DNA of 64,000 nt from Chloroflexota bacterium (GCA_019456165.1 VRUJ01000012.1:115-64114); one strand, 5' to 3'; shown: positions 1,078-12,695, counted from the stretch's first letter. Made by a program: numbers and translations. The notes: a model not told the origin generated them from the sequence alone.

Positions 1078-1154
1078 CCTTGTAATTATCCAGCTAACGC
1101 GCAATAATCTGGCTCACAATTCGGGGCGTGGCGCAGCCCGGTTAGCGCGCTTGC
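1078..1154 (+). repeat. partial duplicate of the tRNA-Pro locus: promoter plus tRNA positions 1-31 (up to the 5' strand of the anticodon stem)
   Basis: Hand alignment gives 74/77 identity to 12577..12653. The sequence is ccttgtaattatc..ctaacgcgc.ataatctggctcacaattCGGGGCGTGGCGCAGCCCGGTTAGCGCGCTTGC. Similarity stops exactly where the anticodon loop would begin. Confidence 0.9.
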
Positions 1155-1634
1155 CGCCATCCAATCTATCTCGATTGCGTTCCAACCATCGGTGAGATTA
1201 TACCAAGAGGAAACGTCCCAGCTGGAGTCATCTTTGGTTACAAGAAAGCGTGTCTGGTATGTGCCTGCATTATCGCGTATTTGCAAACCCAGTTGTATTT
1301 GCGAGGCGTTGTAAGCGCCTATAATTGTAAAGTTATCCCCTGAGGCCATATCCAAGCTGTTAGGGTTAAAGTAGAAACGGGCGCGGTAGCGCGTTTCGTT
1401 TGCCGGAGTACTGTCCTTGGCGTAAATGCTGTTGGTGTCATCGATCAGCGCTTCCATGCCATAGAAGCCGTAATAATCAGAATAACCGCTGGCAGCTAGG
1501 TTCCCGCTATCAGTGGACGAATATGACCAGGCAGAAAGGTCGCCGGATTCGAAATCATCCGCAAAGATACCATCCACGATATTGTCATCCACGTCCATAT
1601 GGTAGCCGGGGGTGAAGCTGGTGTAAGCGCGCAC
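1155..1634 (-). pseudogene. LamG/concanavalin-like domain protein fragment; the 3' end is replaced by the tRNA-Pro fragment
   Basis: ORF 1086..1634 contains DDFESGDLSAWS....RYRARFYFNPNSL....WNAIEIDW, a jelly-roll lectin-like pattern. Its last 22 codons (SALTGLRHAPNCEPDYCALAG) are the antisense translation of the tRNA-Pro repeat, so the native C-terminus is missing. Confidence 0.5.
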
Positions 1635-1788
1635 TATAAAGTTTTGCGGTGCCTTTGCTGGCTTAAACTGATTGATTAAAAACCGAGCTTACCGAATCGT
1701 TTATAACGATTTGTTAGCATGTATTTTGCCTCAAGATAAATCCAACTCGACTAGCTATTTTTGCCCCTTCCCGTCACAATGTTTTATT

Positions 1789-3498
1789 TCAGGCTGTTTG
1801 AGTAGCCGCCTCTGTCTCTAATCCAAGTTCCTCGATACTTTGCTCACGCATGACAAATTTCTGAATCTTGCCCGTCACGGTCATAGGGAAGGAGTCTACA
1901 AATTTGAAATAACGCGGTATCTTGAAGTGAGCGATTTTATCGCGGCAGAACTCGCGCATTTCCTCACCACTGGAACCCTCACCTTCTTTTAGCTTAACCC
2001 AGGCCATAAGCTCTTCACCATACCTCTGGTCCGGAACACCAATAACCTGGACATCGCTAATTTTGGGATGGCTGTAGAGGAACTCTTCAATTTCACGAGG
2101 ATAGACATTTTCCCCACCCCTAATAACCATATCTTTGATGCGCCCAACTATATTTACATAACCATCTTCATCCATTACAGCCAAGTCGCCTGTACGCATC
2201 CAACCGGCTGCATCTATCGAATCACGGGTCTTTTCGTCATCGTTCCAATAACCCAACATGACAGAGTATCCTCGTGTACATAACTCGCCCTTTTCCTCGA
2301 TTGGCACGACTTGACCTGTTTCAGGATCGATAATCTTTACCTCTGTGTGCGGGTGAATCTGACCAACGGTACTAACCCGCTTGTCCAGAGGGGCATCTGC
2401 ATGGGTCTGGAAACTCACTGGGCTGGTTTCGGTCATCCCATATGCAATCTCTACTTCATTCATATGCATGGCCGTATTAACCTGTTTCATAACCTCAACC
2501 GGGCAAGGAGCACCGGCCATAAGTCCCGTTCGCAAGCTGGTGAGATCATATTTATTGAATTCAGGATGCTCCAATTCAGCGATAAACATCGTCGGGACAC
2601 CATGCAAAGCTGTCGCTTTCTCTTCTTCTATCATCGCCAAAACAGAATCTGGCTCAAAGCCAGGGCCAGGGATAAGCATTGCTGCTCCGTGGGTAATACA
2701 AGCCAAGTTTCCCAACACCATGCCAAAGCAGTGGTAAAGGGGAACCGGGATAATTAATCGGTCTCTAGGGCTAAAATTCATGATTTCCCCAACAAAATAA
2801 CCGTTATTGAGGATGTTATGATGACTCAGAGTGGCACCCTTGGGAAATCCAGTGGTCCCGCTTGTATACTGGATGCTGATCGGATCATCGAACTCGAGTT
2901 GGCTTTGACGATCGGCCAGTTCTCCCTGGCTGATCTGATCTGCCATGTCCATCAGATCATTCCAATTCCACATACCTGCTTTCGCATCATCGTCAAGGCA
3001 AATCACTTTCTTCAGATCGGGTAATTTTTCTGCCCTGAGTTGGCCGGGTTTGGTGTCAATTAACTCTGGAGCCAGATCATACATCATTTGGGTATAGTTG
3101 GATCTTTTGAATTCTGGGGCAATGACTAAGGCGCTACATCCGGACTGTCTTAAAGTATATTCCAACTCATGAAGGCGGTAAGCCGGATTGATATTGACCA
3201 AGATAGCCCCCATCTTACAGGTAGCAAACTGAATAATGACCCACTCGGCATTGTTGGGAGACCAGATACCAATTCGATCGCCCTTTTCCATACCGATCGC
3301 CATTAGCCCTCGAGCGCATTGGTTCACTTGTGCCTGCAATTCTTGGTATGTGTAGCGCAGATTCTGGTGACGCACAACAAGCGCCTCATTATCAGGGTAC
3401 TGCTCGACAATTTGATCGAACATTTCGCCAATCGTGAGGCCAAGTAAAGGTTTGTCACTGGTACCGCTGGTATAACTCTGGACATGCTGGCTCATCAT
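1789..3498 (-). CDS. AMP-dependent acyl-CoA synthetase (fatty-acid-CoA ligase family)
   Basis: The 569-aa ORF carries the AMP-binding motifs [25 protein letters not shown] and [16 protein letters not shown], plus a C-terminal TVTGKIQK. Confidence 0.9.
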
Positions 3499-3555
3499 TA
3501 TTTCTCCTTAATTAAACTTTATGACTTTCCAGACCACATGTTTCAGGCTGGTGGA

Positions 3556-4014
3556 TCACAAGCTTTCCATCTCAGTATATACAGCCTCTAAAAATGTCTT
3601 GTGAAGTGCATCGACGCGAACATCTCGTTTCACAGGCACATCCCCATTAACCATTCCTGCCCCGTACATATTACCCCTAACTTCATCTACAACCATCTCG
3701 AAGAGCATTGTTGGCCATTTCGTTGCTTCCATCTTTTCTTTGATAACCGAAGCAGTCCCTTTAATCGCATAGACTTGGTCTTTTCCCAAGATCTGCAGCG
3801 TCACTTGTCTATCACGCCGGATATTAATAGCAGCGGGAACCGCCGCACCGACAACGAACCGAATAGTCTTCTCATTGACTGCTAGAACCCAGGATATCAA
3901 ATCAATGTCGGGCTGACCTTTTGCATCGACGGTAGCCACAGCCACAGTGTGCCCGCGGGCTGCTAAATATTCAACCGTCGCAGTTGGAAGTTTAGGTTGA
4001 GCGTTTTTAGACAT
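3556..4014 (-). CDS. pyridoxamine 5'-phosphate oxidase-like FMN-binding split-barrel protein
   Basis: The pattern is VEYLAARGHTVAVATVDAKGQPDIDLISWV....IRFVVGAAVPAAINIRRDRQVTLQILG. I chose the start at the ATG preceded by GGAGGG; the track ORF extends to 4125. Confidence 0.6.
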   Translation of the reverse strand: MSKNAQPKLPTATVEYLAARGHTVAVATVDAKGQPDIDLISWVLAVNEKTIRFVVGAAVPAAINIRRDRQVTLQILGKDQVYAIKGTASVIKEKMEATKWPTMLFEMVVDEVRGNMYGAGMVNGDVPVKRDVRVDALHKTFLEAVYTEMESL

Positions 4015-4215
4015 GCTTCCCTCCATAGGAGGCTCGAAAGTTCCCTGGTTGACCGCTATCCTTAGGTACTCAGCAATAGTTAGGCCGCTTAGGGCAACGT
4101 AGAACGGAGGTTGGTCCTTACACATCCCAACCCCCGTTCTACTATTATGAGGTATCTCAATTCCCCGTTATGGCAAGGAAGAACAGAGTCATTGCCAGTC
4201 TAAAGGTTCTTGTCT

Positions 4216-11631: not shown

Positions 11632-11684
11632 AACCTACTAGTATAAAGAATAAAAGAACTAAATAATTTCCTGTATCATTCCAA

Positions 11685-11864
11685 TTAACTCAAACCCTTA
11701 TAAGGCACATCCAGTAAACCAGCGGTTTTTTGTTTGGCTTGCTCACCTCTGCGGTCGTAACGTGATGTGGTTTGGGTGTTGGCATGACCAGCCATTTTTG
11801 CCACGATTGAGATATCTGCTCCTGCCATCAATACCTGAAATTGATAATTATTAATATCGAACAT
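11685..11864 (-). pseudogene. tyrosine recombinase/integrase, C-terminal remnant (~45 aa of homology)
   Basis: My translation is ...[49 protein letters not shown]. This is the box II region with the catalytic H and the RY. The residual ORF is 59 aa, so it is below the track threshold. Confidence 0.7.
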
Positions 11865-12094
11865 TCAAGATTAACAACTAAATATGGTACTATAAAGTAG
11901 GATCAAATACATCAATAATTGGCCAGACCCTCACTGCTCTCACATCGCAGATTACGCGGGTCAATCCGTCGAAGAAAAAATTTATCTGTGAGACACTAGA
12001 ATTACCTTTATTATTCATCAATAGCAGCCAACCTAGAGATTCTTCATGAATTTCTACTTTTAACCTAGACTATCTAACCAAGGAGGTACTACCG

Positions 12095-12508
12095 ATGGAA
12101 AAGTCAGCAGAGTTAAGTGATATTGTACTTCGAGTACTGGAAGGGTATGTAAGTGGAGACATTTCAACTTCCGAAAATATAACCTCGCAAAAGGATGAAG
12201 TATTACTCATTGGATCTGACCCCAATGAGTGGTGGGAAGGTTACAATAAGATCATCAGTACTCTCAAATCTCAATCGGGAGAGCTTAGTGGAGCAACCCT
12301 CAGTGAAGTAGATACAAAGGCTTACGTCGAGGGGACAACAGGATGGTTTAACAATCGAACGACAATGAAAATGCCGGATGACCTAGAAATTCCATTTCGT
12401 GTCACAGGCGTCTTCCATCAAGAAGATGGGGACTGGAAAATCATACAATGGCATGCCTCTGTCGGTGTAGCAAACGAAGAGGCCATGGGACAAGAGTTCA
12501 CGACGTAG
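12095..12508 (+). CDS. SnoaL/NTF2-like fold protein (hypothetical)
   Basis: The 137-aa ORF has a good RBS (AAGGAGG). The cone-shaped alpha+beta pattern ending in GDWKIIQWHAS is typical of NTF2-like proteins. Confidence 0.4.
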   Translation: MEKSAELSDIVLRVLEGYVSGDISTSENITSQKDEVLLIGSDPNEWWEGYNKIISTLKSQSGELSGATLSEVDTKAYVEGTTGWFNNRTTMKMPDDLEIPFRVTGVFHQEDGDWKIIQWHASVGVANEEAMGQEFTT

Positions 12509-12576
12509 TTTTATGTTTTATGTTTTACCAGGATCAGATTGGGAGGTAAAGCCTTTCTTTCCCTTCTTGCCTCCCG

Positions 12577-12653
12577 CCTTGTAATTATCAGGCTAACGCG
12601 CTATAATCTGGCTCACAATTCGGGGCGTGGCGCAGCCCGGTTAGCGCGCTTGC
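12577..12653 (+). repeat. right-hand copy of the 77-nt tRNA-Pro promoter/5'-half repeat (part of the intact locus)
   Basis: It pairs with 1078..1154 at 74/77 identity. Confidence 0.9.
12579..12607 (+). promoter_or_regulatory. sigma-70-type promoter of tRNA-Pro (TTGTAA-17-TATAAT)
   Basis: The hexamers and 17-nt spacing were read directly. The -10 element ends 13 nt before tRNA position 1. Confidence 0.5.
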
Positions 12654-12695
12654 ATGGGGTGCAAGAGGTCGGAGGTTCGAATCCTCTCGCCCCGA
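12621..12695 (+). tRNA. tRNA-Pro (anticodon GGG)
   Basis: Hand-folded cloverleaf: acceptor CGGGGCG/CGCCCCG with the bacterial Pro-type C1-G72 pair and A73. D stem GCGC/GCGC, anticodon stem CTTGC/GCAAG, loop AT-GGG-GT, T loop TTCGAAT. CCA is not encoded. Confidence 0.9.

What the first reader, a model, noticed from the sequence alone, without database searches (positions are those of the whole stretch)
1078..12695. A 77-nt duplicate of the tRNA-Pro promoter plus 5' half lies 11.5 kb upstream of the intact gene, with the breakpoint exactly at the anticodon loop
Seen directly: 1078-1154 and 12577-12653 are 74/77 identical direct repeats. They cover the -35/-10 region, the leader and tRNA positions 1-31. 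Identity ends at the first base of the anticodon loop. The interval carries a self-contained metabolic/transport cluster, and its right end holds an integrase remnant.

Established knowledge: tyrosine-integrase elements often cross over in the anticodon or T loop of tRNA genes and leave a partial tRNA direct repeat. In nearly all described cases it is the 3' part of the tRNA that is duplicated.

Inference: one possibility is a degenerate genomic island whose attP carried the 5' half and promoter of the tRNA, which is the unusual polarity. The other is a non-integrase segmental duplication that happened to break in the anticodon loop. In the first case the functional tRNA-Pro would now be expressed from element-derived promoter DNA. 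The left junction is untidy, because the repeat abuts a truncated LamG-like gene. Later rearrangement is therefore likely.
Basis: partly seen in the sequence, partly recalled or inferred. Interest (0 to 1): 0.6.

Follow-up and report, generated by a model that had tools for sequence, protein, structure and literature searches.

The report
Decayed island scar at tRNA-Pro
An 11.5-kb block of metabolic genes in a Chloroflexi metagenome genome is bracketed by two copies of the promoter plus first half of a proline tRNA gene, most likely the worn-out scar of a mobile element that inserted in the rarer but already known "upstream" orientation, so it is a tidy but fairly ordinary case.

Summary
The repeat is real. 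Window 1078-1154 and 12577-12653 match at 74 of 77 bases, and the last 51 are identical. The repeat covers a sigma-70-like promoter, the leader and tRNA-Pro(GGG) positions 1-31. An independent k=31 assembly of the same reads reproduces both inner junctions.

The island reading is partly supported:
- Distant relatives share a backbone: TetR | tRNA-Pro(GGG) | FAA hydrolase-RpiR-tRNA-Val. One of them (L014) is "empty" on both sides of the tRNA.
- A XerD-like integrase family targets this tRNA in related metagenomes.
- The interval holds a 47-59 aa integrase C-terminal stub.

- The break "at the anticodon loop" is not a clean att boundary. The truncated neighbouring gene still reads its family's conserved Ala-Ser-Ala through 9 bases of the tRNA piece, so the junction carries a 9-bp microhomology.
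- The stub belongs to a different integrase family from the one found at this tRNA elsewhere.
- Base composition of the interval is not foreign.
- Copy A lies only 1.17 kb from the end of a metagenome scaffold.
- The 5'-fragment polarity is already documented: 159 of 3919 Islander islands, pelagiphages, and Klebsiella arg2 islands.

Verdict: a degenerate, immobile island of a known minority kind. Interest is low to moderate.

The parts
685..1049 (.). Left flank X. It holds two gene fragments that diverge from one breakpoint near 920: an HD-GYP C-terminal fragment on the minus strand (685-915) and a VOC/glyoxalase-like C-terminal fragment on the plus strand (about 930-1049).
   Evidence: PF13487 HD_5 profile positions 115-170 of 170 match residues 43-98 of the minus-strand ORF. 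The VOC assignment comes from reading the sequence only (no Pfam hit). Both fragments lack their N-terminal parts, which looks like a deletion scar.
1065..1076 (+). 12-mer TACAATCAAACT that ends one base before copy A. It is identical to the leader directly preceding tRNA-Pro +1 in relative L014.
   Evidence: The 12-mer is unique in the window and in all loci. This was noticed post hoc and its meaning is unexplained.
1078..1154 (+). Orphan copy A: promoter-like TTGTAA-17-AATAAT (1080-1108), leader, and tRNA-Pro positions 1-31 (1122-1154).
   Evidence: The first base of the -10 hexamer is changed relative to copy B. Eight of the relatives' tRNA-Pro(GGG) promoters carry CTATAAT.
1146..1154 (.). 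9-bp microhomology CGCGCTTGC. It is tRNA nt 23-31 on the plus strand, and on the minus strand it reads GCA AGC GCG (Ala-Ser-Ala), continuing the truncated gene's family consensus.
   Evidence: Alignment A2. Homologues read DW-x-A-[A/S]-[S/T/A]-[A/G]; the window reads DWMA|ASA and homologue P0109 reads DWMAASA. My estimate of the chance of this match is about 0.004.
1155..1634 (-). C-terminally truncated gene for one unit of a repeated ~145-aa jelly-roll-type domain. About 65-70 residues are missing.
   Evidence: The representative search found 1895 hits, mostly large multi-domain proteins. Alignment A2 shows homologues continuing beyond the junction. There is no Pfam hit for the ORF itself; some homologues give a weak PF14099 match.
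1789..11217 (-). Cargo cluster: fatty-acid CoA ligase family protein, PPOX-class flavoprotein, SsuA/NMT1-like binding protein, a second acyl-CoA synthetase, two Mer-like LLM oxidoreductases, and two SsuC/TauC-like ABC permeases. No ATPase is present.
   Evidence: Pfam and NCBIfam.
11685..11864 (-). Tyrosine-recombinase C-terminal stub (…[17 protein letters not shown]…), about 45 homologous residues.
   Evidence: ORF; PF00589 positions 141-167 of 172, E=4.7e-4. A word-indexed protein search (limited sensitivity for a 52-aa query) returned only the stub itself. It is 21-27% identical to the P0044/P0050 family.
12095..12508 (+). Intact SnoaL_3/NTF2-like gene lying between the integrase stub and copy B.
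   Evidence: Pfam. Homologues at 61-69% identity sit in unrelated contexts with no tRNA nearby.
12577..12653 (+). Copy B: promoter TTGTAA-17-TATAAT (12579-12607), leader, and the 5' half of the working gene.
12621..12696 (+). Intact tRNA-Pro(GGG).
   Evidence: ARAGORN and Rfam at 60.7 bits. The sequence is identical to that of relatives L012, L013, L014, L019 and L025.
12697..16928 (.). 4.2 kb (SHOCT-domain protein, GDP-mannose dehydratase, a 284-aa hypothetical, DUF4332) that is absent between tRNA-Pro and FAA hydrolase in relatives.
   Evidence: In L014 the tRNA and FAA hydrolase are 33 nt apart, and in L019 about 200 nt apart. No 3' tRNA fragment flanks this block.
16929..18741 (.). Conserved backbone: FAA hydrolase (-), RpiR regulator (-), tRNA-Val (+).
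   Evidence: 69-72% amino-acid identity and the same gene order in L019; the FAA hydrolase is 64% identical in L014.

Best explanation
The two copies are the left and right scars of an old Campbell-type insertion of a circular element into the tRNA-Pro(GGG) gene, in the minority '5' polarity'.

**Proposed mechanism.**
- The element's attachment site carried a promoter, leader and 5' part of the tRNA.
- Recombination was most likely by a tyrosine integrase acting inside the shared block. The D-loop or the anticodon-arm region are the candidate crossover sites.
- This left an orphan promoter plus 5' fragment at the upstream end (copy A). It rebuilt an intact gene at the downstream end (copy B plus the resident 3' half).

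**Later decay.**
- The integrase gene was lost or reduced.
- A deletion between two 9-bp direct repeats (CGCGCTTGC, one in the tRNA and one inside a jelly-roll-domain gene) trimmed the orphan fragment back to position 31. It also removed whatever lay between, possibly an integrase gene as seen next to such fragments in L016, L027 and L032.
- The orphan -10 box mutated.
- The element is now immobile cargo: acyl-CoA ligases, flavin/F420-type oxidoreductases and an incomplete ABC importer.

**Shown versus inferred.** Shown: the repeat, its content, the truncated gene, the microhomology, the integrase stub, the conserved backbone in relatives, and integrase elements at this tRNA elsewhere. Inferred: integrase catalysis, the order of events, and which copy is element-derived.
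For: - **Geometry.** The interval is bracketed exactly by direct repeats of a tRNA end fragment on the side expected for a 5'-fragment island.
- **Functional content.** The repeat begins 2 nt before the -35 hexamer. It spans exactly what an element would need in order to restore expression.
- **Orphan decay.** The orphan copy has AATAAT where copy B has TATAAT, and eight of the relatives' promoters carry CTATAAT. This fits relaxed selection on copy A.
- **Integrase stub** inside the interval.
- **Empty state in relatives.** L014 has TetR 184 nt upstream and FAA hydrolase 33 nt downstream of the tRNA. L019 has tRNA-Pro-FAAH-RpiR-tRNA-Val.
- **The tRNA is a target elsewhere.** One XerD-like integrase family (43-70% pairwise identity) sits at it in several contigs:
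  - L029 and L039 carry the 3' part next to the integrase gene.
  - L025 has an intact tRNA followed by an integrase gene.
  - L016, L027 and L032/L033 have a promoter plus only a 5' part of the tRNA followed by an integrase gene, in L016 with the backbone TetR upstream.
- **Independent assembly.** The Logan assembly confirms the inner junctions.
- **Precedent for the polarity.** Islander Table 1 lists 159 of 3919 islands with 5' fragments (PMC4383910). Pelagiphages restore host tRNAs with a phage-borne 5' part (10.1101/410191). Klebsiella islands integrate upstream of arg2 using the acceptor/D-arm region (10.1101/2020.11.02.365908).
Against: - No intact integrase is present. The stub belongs to a different family from the one seen at this tRNA, points away from the tRNA, and is itself cut by another breakpoint.
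- The repeat does not include the anticodon loop. A loop crossover, as in L029-type elements, would require a later deletion to explain this.
- The microhomology junction is a hallmark of illegitimate recombination, not site-specific recombination.
- GC and tetranucleotide composition are not foreign.
- The left flank X is not the backbone TetR. It consists of gene fragments.
- The relatives used are distant (64-72% amino-acid identity), so the 'empty site' evidence is weak.
- For L016, L027 and L032 the far ends were not recovered. They may disrupt the tRNA rather than restore it.
- All viral-contig relatives that carry tRNA pieces show the standard 3' polarity.
- The promoter and leader of the two copies are 41/44 identical. 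That suggests recent capture from a very close host, which also fits the homologous-recombination rival.
Confidence: 0.48

Rival explanations
1. Campbell insertion by homologous recombination rather than by an integrase. In a closely related donor the cluster lay just upstream of tRNA-Pro. Illegitimate looping-out between the 9-bp repeats in the jelly-roll gene and in the tRNA made a circle carrying promoter plus 5' half. After transfer, RecA-type recombination across the ~77-bp shared block inserted the circle into the recipient's tRNA-Pro locus.
For: - The 9-bp microhomology lies exactly at the end of the repeat, so a single event explains both the truncated gene and the '5' half only' capture.
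- The two copies are 41/44 identical in promoter and leader, implying a very close donor.
- There is no working integrase.
- Composition is native-like.
Against: - It needs the formation, transfer and rescue of a non-replicating circle through only 51-77 bp of homology.
- It does not explain the integrase stub.
- It does not explain why this tRNA is a recurrent integrase target in relatives.
Confidence: 0.18
2. Copy A is the relic of a second, once complete, tRNA-Pro gene with its own promoter. It would have been carried by an island or produced by a local segmental duplication, and was later cut down by the microhomology deletion. No insertion into the tRNA gene itself took place.
For: The microhomology deletion means the original extent of the upstream copy is unknown; it reached at least position 31. 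The region is a patchwork of breakpoints at about 920, 1154 and 11865.
Against: - Both copies lose similarity to each other at the same point, 2 nt before the -35 hexamer, and the interval abuts copy B exactly there. Circle insertion predicts this; for an independent gene copy it would be a coincidence.
- A tandem duplication would leave a second copy of the SnoaL end of the interval upstream of copy A, and none is present.
Confidence: 0.14
3. Assembly artefact. The true molecules are an empty site (X-promoter-tRNA-Z) plus a separate circular or multi-copy 11.5-kb molecule. The scaffolder threaded the two together through the 51-nt exact repeat.
For: The source is a metagenome scaffold and copy A is 1.17 kb from its end. 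The k=31 assembly breaks in the repeat, so that graph cannot tell the two arrangements apart. The X-flank protein is found only on the scaffold.
Against: - The exact repeat is only 51 nt, shorter than typical reads and final k-mers. Each copy is entered through a distinct 26-nt stretch.
- The window contains no N bases.
- The tRNA-fragment/truncated-gene junction is real in either case.
- An 11.5-kb circle without integrase or replication genes has no obvious means of persisting.
Confidence: 0.08

Closest known systems
Islander-type tDNA genomic islands with a 5' tDNA fragment (159 of 3919 islands; Hudson, Lau & Williams 2015, PMC4383910)
   Same: An intact tDNA plus a cognate 5' end fragment lying upstream in direct orientation. 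The interval is 11.5 kb, within the 2-200 kb range. The element side restores the gene.
   Different: There is no integrase ORF, only a ~45-residue stub, so Islander's integrase filter would reject it. The fragment boundary carries a microhomology junction with a truncated gene.
HTVC019P-type pelagiphages that carry the 5' part of a tRNA (HTVC021P, 022P, 109P, 120P; bioRxiv 10.1101/410191)
   Same: The host tRNA is split and then complemented by an element-borne 5' part. The orphan 5' fragment stays at the upstream junction.
   Different: In pelagiphages the att site lies just downstream of an intact integrase gene, and integration was shown by PCR and sequencing. Here there are no phage genes, no intact integrase, and the stub points away from the tRNA.
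Klebsiella pneumoniae islands integrated upstream of the arg2 tDNA (integrase clade I.d; bioRxiv 10.1101/2020.11.02.365908)
   Same: Upstream integration. The recombination site covers the 5' acceptor strand, D-stem and D-loop, all of which lie inside the repeat seen here.
   Different: A different phylum and a different tRNA, with intact integrases. No relationship of the stub to that integrase clade was tested.
XerD-like integrases at tRNA-Pro(GGG) in Chloroflexota-like metagenome contigs and IMG/VR phages (P0044, P0048, P0050; loci L016, L025, L027, L029, L032, L039)
   Same: The same target tRNA. Junctions of the form 'promoter + 5' part of tRNA-Pro followed by element DNA' occur in L016, L027 and L032.
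   Different: The window contains no remnant of this family. Its stub has a different C-terminal motif. Family members whose att site could be read (L029, L039, L040) carry the 3' part.

Membership tests
tDNA-targeting tyrosine-integrase genomic island (Islander signature) | Intact tDNA plus a cognate end fragment in the same orientation, with a 5' fragment lying upstream | tested here: met
   tRNA-Pro at 12621-12696; its 5' fragment at 1122-1154 on the same strand and upstream.
tDNA-targeting tyrosine-integrase genomic island (Islander signature) | An integrase gene inside or overlapping the interval | tested here: not met
   Only a C-terminal stub of about 45 homologous residues (PF00589 positions 141-167 of 172, E=4.7e-4, below the curated cut-off). 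tblastn with four full-length integrases found nothing else in the window.
tDNA-targeting tyrosine-integrase genomic island (Islander signature) | Interval length of 2-200 kb, and the fragment does not overlap a conserved protein domain | tested here: met
   11.5 kb. The fragment overlaps only the read-through tail of a truncated ORF, and no Pfam domain lies there.
tDNA-targeting tyrosine-integrase genomic island (Islander signature) | An unoccupied target site exists in related genomes | tested here: inconclusive
   L014 and L019 lack the interval, but they are distant (64-72% amino-acid identity). The upstream flank differs among relatives. No close relative was found.
tDNA-targeting tyrosine-integrase genomic island (Islander signature) | Excision to a circle with a reconstituted attP and attB | not testable with these tools
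   This needs the reads of SRR8799001 or PCR.
Anticodon-loop (class A) tRNA integrators | The identity block shared by both junctions includes the 7-nt anticodon loop, which is the crossover/overlap region | tested here: not met
   Identity stops after position 31. Copy A continues CGCCATC where the gene has ATGGGGT. L029 and L039 attP-like sites do include the loop.
5'-polarity tRNA integrators (pelagiphage / Klebsiella arg2 type) | The element-side copy supplies the 5' part of the tRNA, and here also a promoter, so that the gene is restored at the downstream junction | tested here: met
   The repeat spans the -35 and -10 hexamers, the leader and positions 1-31, and the downstream copy is an intact, conserved tRNA. 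Which copy is element-derived could not be determined.
XerD-like tRNA-Pro(GGG) integrase family (P0044/P0048/P0050) | The window's recombinase stub belongs to this family | tested here: not met
   21-27% identity over 32-45 residues. The family C-terminus reads LLGHSTLxMVxRYLxLAD…ASPVDRW, whereas the stub reads [17 protein letters not shown].
Microhomology-mediated deletion / illegitimate recombination junction | A short stretch at the junction can be assigned to both joined partners | tested here: met
   The 9 nt CGCGCTTGC are tRNA nt 23-31. On the other strand they encode the Ala-Ser-Ala that continues the family consensus of the truncated gene. The ancestral DNA of the gene is not available, so the inference rests on the protein level.

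The most novel reading that the evidence does not exclude
A single XerD-like integrase family in Chloroflexota-like organisms targets the tRNA-Pro(GGG) gene in both polarities. Some members carry the usual 3' part next to the integrase gene (L029, L039, L025). Others (L016, L027, L032/L033) leave only the host promoter plus 5' part next to the integrase gene and would rebuild the gene at their far end with an element-borne promoter and 5' half. The window would then be the only complete, though decayed, example. In such lysogens, expression of a host tRNA would be under the control of element DNA.
Probability: 0.25. Interest if true: 0.45.

Novelty: new member of a known kind. 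Interest (0 to 1): 0.3.

Why it matters
If the reading is right, this is a worked example from an uncultured Chloroflexi lineage with three lessons:
- A tRNA gene can end up transcribed from a promoter that arrived on a mobile element.
- Such an island can be locked in place by a small microhomology deletion that removes its recombination machinery.
- Island finders that require an integrase gene or a foreign composition would miss it.

The broader value is modest, because 5'-fragment islands are already catalogued. The more useful lead is the integrase family that appears at tRNA-Pro(GGG) with either half of the tRNA next to it. That family could be used to ask what determines polarity.

Tried and rejected
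**Searches that gave nothing useful**
It returned only an unrelated Pseudomonadota SHOCT motif, so no named close relative was obtained.
- The protein search with the integrase stub found only itself.
- SnoaL homologues (61-69% identity) sit in unrelated contexts with no tRNA nearby.
- The 51-mer of the exact repeat has no match in JGI metagenomes. The tRNA 5' half has none in viral contigs.
- Viral scans with the L025 integrase and with P0048 found nothing. The scan with P0044 found only distant phage integrases (33-54% identical), and those with tRNA pieces were of standard polarity.
- Looking up the X-flank ORF returned only the scaffold itself.
- Comparing the 110-160 nt upstream of each copy with relatives' upstream regions did not show which copy is native.
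- GC and tetranucleotide profiles gave no island signal.

**Readings rejected**
- A displaced 3' tRNA fragment anywhere in the window: none found with up to 4 mismatches.
- Origin of copy A from the tRNA-Pro(TGG) gene. The TGG gene shares the 33-nt 5' half, but in relatives it has a different promoter.
- A simple tandem duplication: no second copy of the interval's right end lies upstream of copy A.
- The 'LamG-like' label: no Pfam support.

Full report
**1. The observation**

The repeat is in the sequence as described. The repeat finder gives one 77-nt family, 1078-1154 and 12577-12653, at 74/77 identity. The three mismatches lie in the first 26 nt, and 1104-1154 is identical to 12603-12653.

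ARAGORN and Rfam place an intact tRNA-Pro(GGG) at 12621-12696. The 33-nt 5' half occurs exactly twice in 64 kb, where none is expected by chance. The 3' half occurs once, even allowing four mismatches.

The promoter scan finds TTGTAA-17-TATAAT at 12579-12607 and TTGTAA-17-AATAAT at 1080-1108. The block therefore starts 2 nt before a -35 hexamer and ends after tRNA position 31, immediately before the anticodon loop.

**2. Where the window comes from, and the assembly caveat**

Exact-protein look-ups show that the window is part of metagenome scaffold ZHAO22-1_SAMN11268109_METAG-scaffold_117 (93.8 kb). NCBI lists it as a 'Chloroflexi bacterium' MAG. Window position 1 is record position 93, so copy A is only about 1.17 kb from the scaffold end. 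The scaffold ends inside a low-complexity stretch of a lipoprotein gene.

An independent k=31 Logan assembly of the same run yields a contig that equals window 1125-12632 base for base. It starts and ends 30 nt inside the 51-nt exact repeat. Both inner junctions are therefore real DNA: tRNA fragment to truncated gene, and interval to promoter. That graph cannot say whether flank X is joined to the interval, or instead to the intact tRNA with the interval as a circle.

The scaffold arrangement is the likelier one. The exact repeat is shorter than usual reads, each copy is entered through a distinct 26 nt, and the window has no N bases. It has not been checked against reads.

**3. Anatomy of the interval**

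All cargo genes are on the minus strand:
- a fatty-acid CoA ligase family protein (NF009233, above its cut-off);
- a PPOX-class flavoprotein;
- an SsuA/NMT1-like binding protein;
- a second acyl-CoA synthetase;
- two Mer-like LLM oxidoreductases;
- two SsuC/TauC-like permeases.

There is no ABC ATPase, so the transporter is incomplete.

At 11685-11864 (minus strand) lies a stub ending …[17 protein letters not shown]…. It matches the last part of PF00589 (positions 141-167 of 172, E=4.7e-4). A full integrase ending there would have to start beyond 12,585. The intact SnoaL-like gene (12095-12508) and the tRNA therefore occupy the place of its N-terminal two-thirds, which marks another breakpoint near 11,865.

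Flank X also carries a scar. An HD-GYP C-terminal fragment (minus strand) and a VOC-like C-terminal fragment (plus strand) diverge from one point near 920.

GC content and tetranucleotide distance of the interval lie within the spread of the rest of the window (z from -1.4 to +1.0).

**4. The left junction is a microhomology junction**

The ORF abutting copy A (1155-1634, minus strand) has 1895 relatives. Most are large proteins with several copies of a ~145-residue domain. It gives no Pfam hit, and some homologues give a weak polysaccharide-lyase/jelly-roll match, so 'LamG-like' is unsupported.

In alignment A2 the homologues continue for about 65-70 residues beyond the junction, with the consensus DW-x-A-A-S-A-x-G-A-N-N-G…. 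The window ORF reads …IEIDWMA|ASALTGLRH. The three codons after the junction, GCA AGC GCG, are the reverse complement of tRNA nt 23-31, yet they still spell the family's Ala-Ser-Ala. Homologue P0109 reads DWMAASA.

I estimate the chance of this at about 0.004. The nine bases CGCGCTTGC therefore belong to both partners.

This is the signature of illegitimate recombination between short direct repeats. It means 'identity ends at the first base of the anticodon loop' marks where the microhomology ends, not an att boundary. It also means the original upstream copy may have been longer.

**5. Relatives**

A scan of JGI metagenomes with the 33-nt 5' half gave 19 contigs. Twelve carry the GGG gene or its 5' part; seven carry tRNA-Pro(TGG), which shares the 5' half but has a different promoter.

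They reveal a backbone:
- A TetR regulator lies 120-360 nt upstream on the opposite strand in L010/L020, L014, L016 and L018.
- FAA hydrolase, RpiR and tRNA-Val lie downstream in L019 (69-72% amino-acid identity to window 16929-18741). L014 shows the FAA hydrolase only, because the contig ends within it.
- L014 has TetR 184 nt upstream and FAA hydrolase 33 nt downstream, so it is empty on both sides.

In the window there is no TetR. In addition, 4.2 kb (12697-16928) separates the tRNA from FAA hydrolase, with no flanking tRNA fragment. These relatives are distant, so they show a variable hot spot rather than a strict empty site.

Eight of the relatives' GGG-type promoters carry CTATAAT. Copy B keeps it and copy A has AATAAT.

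**6. Integrases at this tRNA elsewhere**

- **L016** has the backbone TetR, a promoter, and tRNA-Pro up to two bases past the anticodon loop. Then come foreign DNA, a hairpin, and the start of a XerD-like integrase gene. ARAGORN finds no tRNA there.
- **L027.** A profile search from L016 and from the L025 integrase found 13 relatives. P0044 is 70% identical to the L016 N-terminus and lies on a 75.6-kb contig (L027). Its arrangement is the same: promoter, 5' part through the whole anticodon arm, hairpin, integrase gene.
- **L032 and L033** (P0048, from two samples) show a promoter and a 5' part up to the 5' strand of the T-stem, followed by an integrase gene.
- **Standard-polarity members.** L029, L034 and the IMG/VR phages L039 and L040 carry the 3' part of tRNA-Pro just upstream of the integrase gene. 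L025 has an intact tRNA followed by a truncated integrase gene.

The family is 43-70% identical pairwise. The far ends of the '5' part then integrase' elements could not be recovered, so I cannot tell whether they restore the tRNA with an element-borne 5' part or simply disrupt it. The window's stub is not of this family, and no remnant of the family is present in the window.

**7. Explanation**

The geometry is what insertion of a circle carrying that block produces: an interval bracketed exactly by a direct repeat, the repeat starting at the -35, and the two copies' upstream flanks unrelated.

I favour integrase-mediated insertion in the 5' polarity, followed by decay (confidence about 0.48). 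The decay would include a 9-bp-microhomology deletion that trimmed the orphan fragment and truncated the neighbouring gene.

Rivals:
- **Homologous recombination (about 0.18).** The same circle was made by microhomology looping-out in a very close donor and inserted by homologous recombination. This explains the junction in one step and fits the 41/44 identity of promoter and leader.
- **Relic of a second complete tRNA-Pro gene, or a segmental duplication (about 0.14).**
- **Assembly artefact (about 0.08).**

**8. Comparison with what is known**

The polarity is a known minority:
- Islander lists 3760 islands with 3' fragments and 159 with 5' fragments (PMC4383910, Table 1).
- Several pelagiphages carry the 5' part of a tRNA and complement the split host gene (10.1101/410191).
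- Klebsiella islands integrate upstream of arg2 with a recombination site spanning the 5' acceptor strand, D-stem and D-loop (10.1101/2020.11.02.365908). All of those regions lie inside the present repeat.

The statement that anticodon-loop integrators use the 7-nt loop as the overlap region rests on my knowledge of Williams (2002, Nucleic Acids Research), which the paper library does not hold.

By Islander's own rules this locus would fail the integrase filter. It works like a 5'-fragment island, but it is a degenerate one.

**9. Verdict**

The 'breakpoint at the anticodon loop' is better read as a microhomology junction. In kind this is a new member of a known class, and interest is about 0.3.

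The most novel reading that remains open is one integrase family using both polarities at tRNA-Pro(GGG). It has perhaps a one-in-four chance of being right and would deserve moderate interest.

Noticed in passing
window 12697-16928: A 4.2-kb block (SHOCT-domain protein, GDP-mannose 4,6-dehydratase, a 284-aa hypothetical, DUF4332) sits between tRNA-Pro and FAA hydrolase. In relatives L014 and L019 those two are 33-200 nt apart. No tRNA 3' fragment or integrase marks the block. It may be a second, downstream insertion at the same tRNA.
   Followed up: partly
window 1065-1076 and L014 2570-2581: The 12 nt just before copy A (TACAATCAAACT) are identical to the leader that directly precedes tRNA-Pro +1 in L014. 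There is no similarity further upstream. It may be a relic of a native leader, a shared motif, or chance.
   Followed up: partly
window 685-1049: Two gene fragments, both lacking their N-terminal parts, diverge from one point near 920: HD-GYP on the minus strand and VOC-like on the plus strand. This looks like a deletion across a divergent gene pair.
   Followed up: partly
window 9463-11684: The ABC importer has a binding protein and two permeases but no ATPase gene. The 470 nt upstream of the first permease are AT-rich and non-coding.
   Followed up: partly
L016 5215-5514; L027 9845-10915; L032 773-1863; L033 13-1103: Three independent element types (four contigs) have a promoter plus only the 5' part of tRNA-Pro(GGG), cut at different points after the anticodon loop. 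About 90-130 nt further on, a XerD-like integrase gene begins. It is full-length in L027, L032 and L033, and runs off the contig end in L016.
   Followed up: partly
L027 14415-14709: A second tyrosine-recombinase-like N-terminal domain gene starts 3.5 kb downstream of the first integrase gene, and the 75.6-kb contig ends inside it.
   Followed up: no
L034 184-2042: An integrase of the same family is cut short at 254 residues by an IS3-family transposase pair (rve, HTH_Tnp_1).
   Followed up: no
window 40000-42000 and 51000-56000: These are the lowest-GC stretches of the window (0.33-0.40) and the largest tetranucleotide deviations (z up to 3.1). The second includes tRNA-Arg(TCT) at 54262-54336. 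Another variable region may lie there.
   Followed up: no
window 48 (record position 140): The window differs from the ENA copy of the scaffold by one base (T versus G). The NCBI copy of the contig is 44 nt longer (93,858 versus 93,814).
   Followed up: no
L024 4641-6854: In this relative, 2.2 kb (an M23-like peptidase and a 407-aa protein) separate the backbone TetR from the tRNA-Pro promoter. No integrase or repeat is present, so the upstream side is variable in other lineages too.
   Followed up: partly
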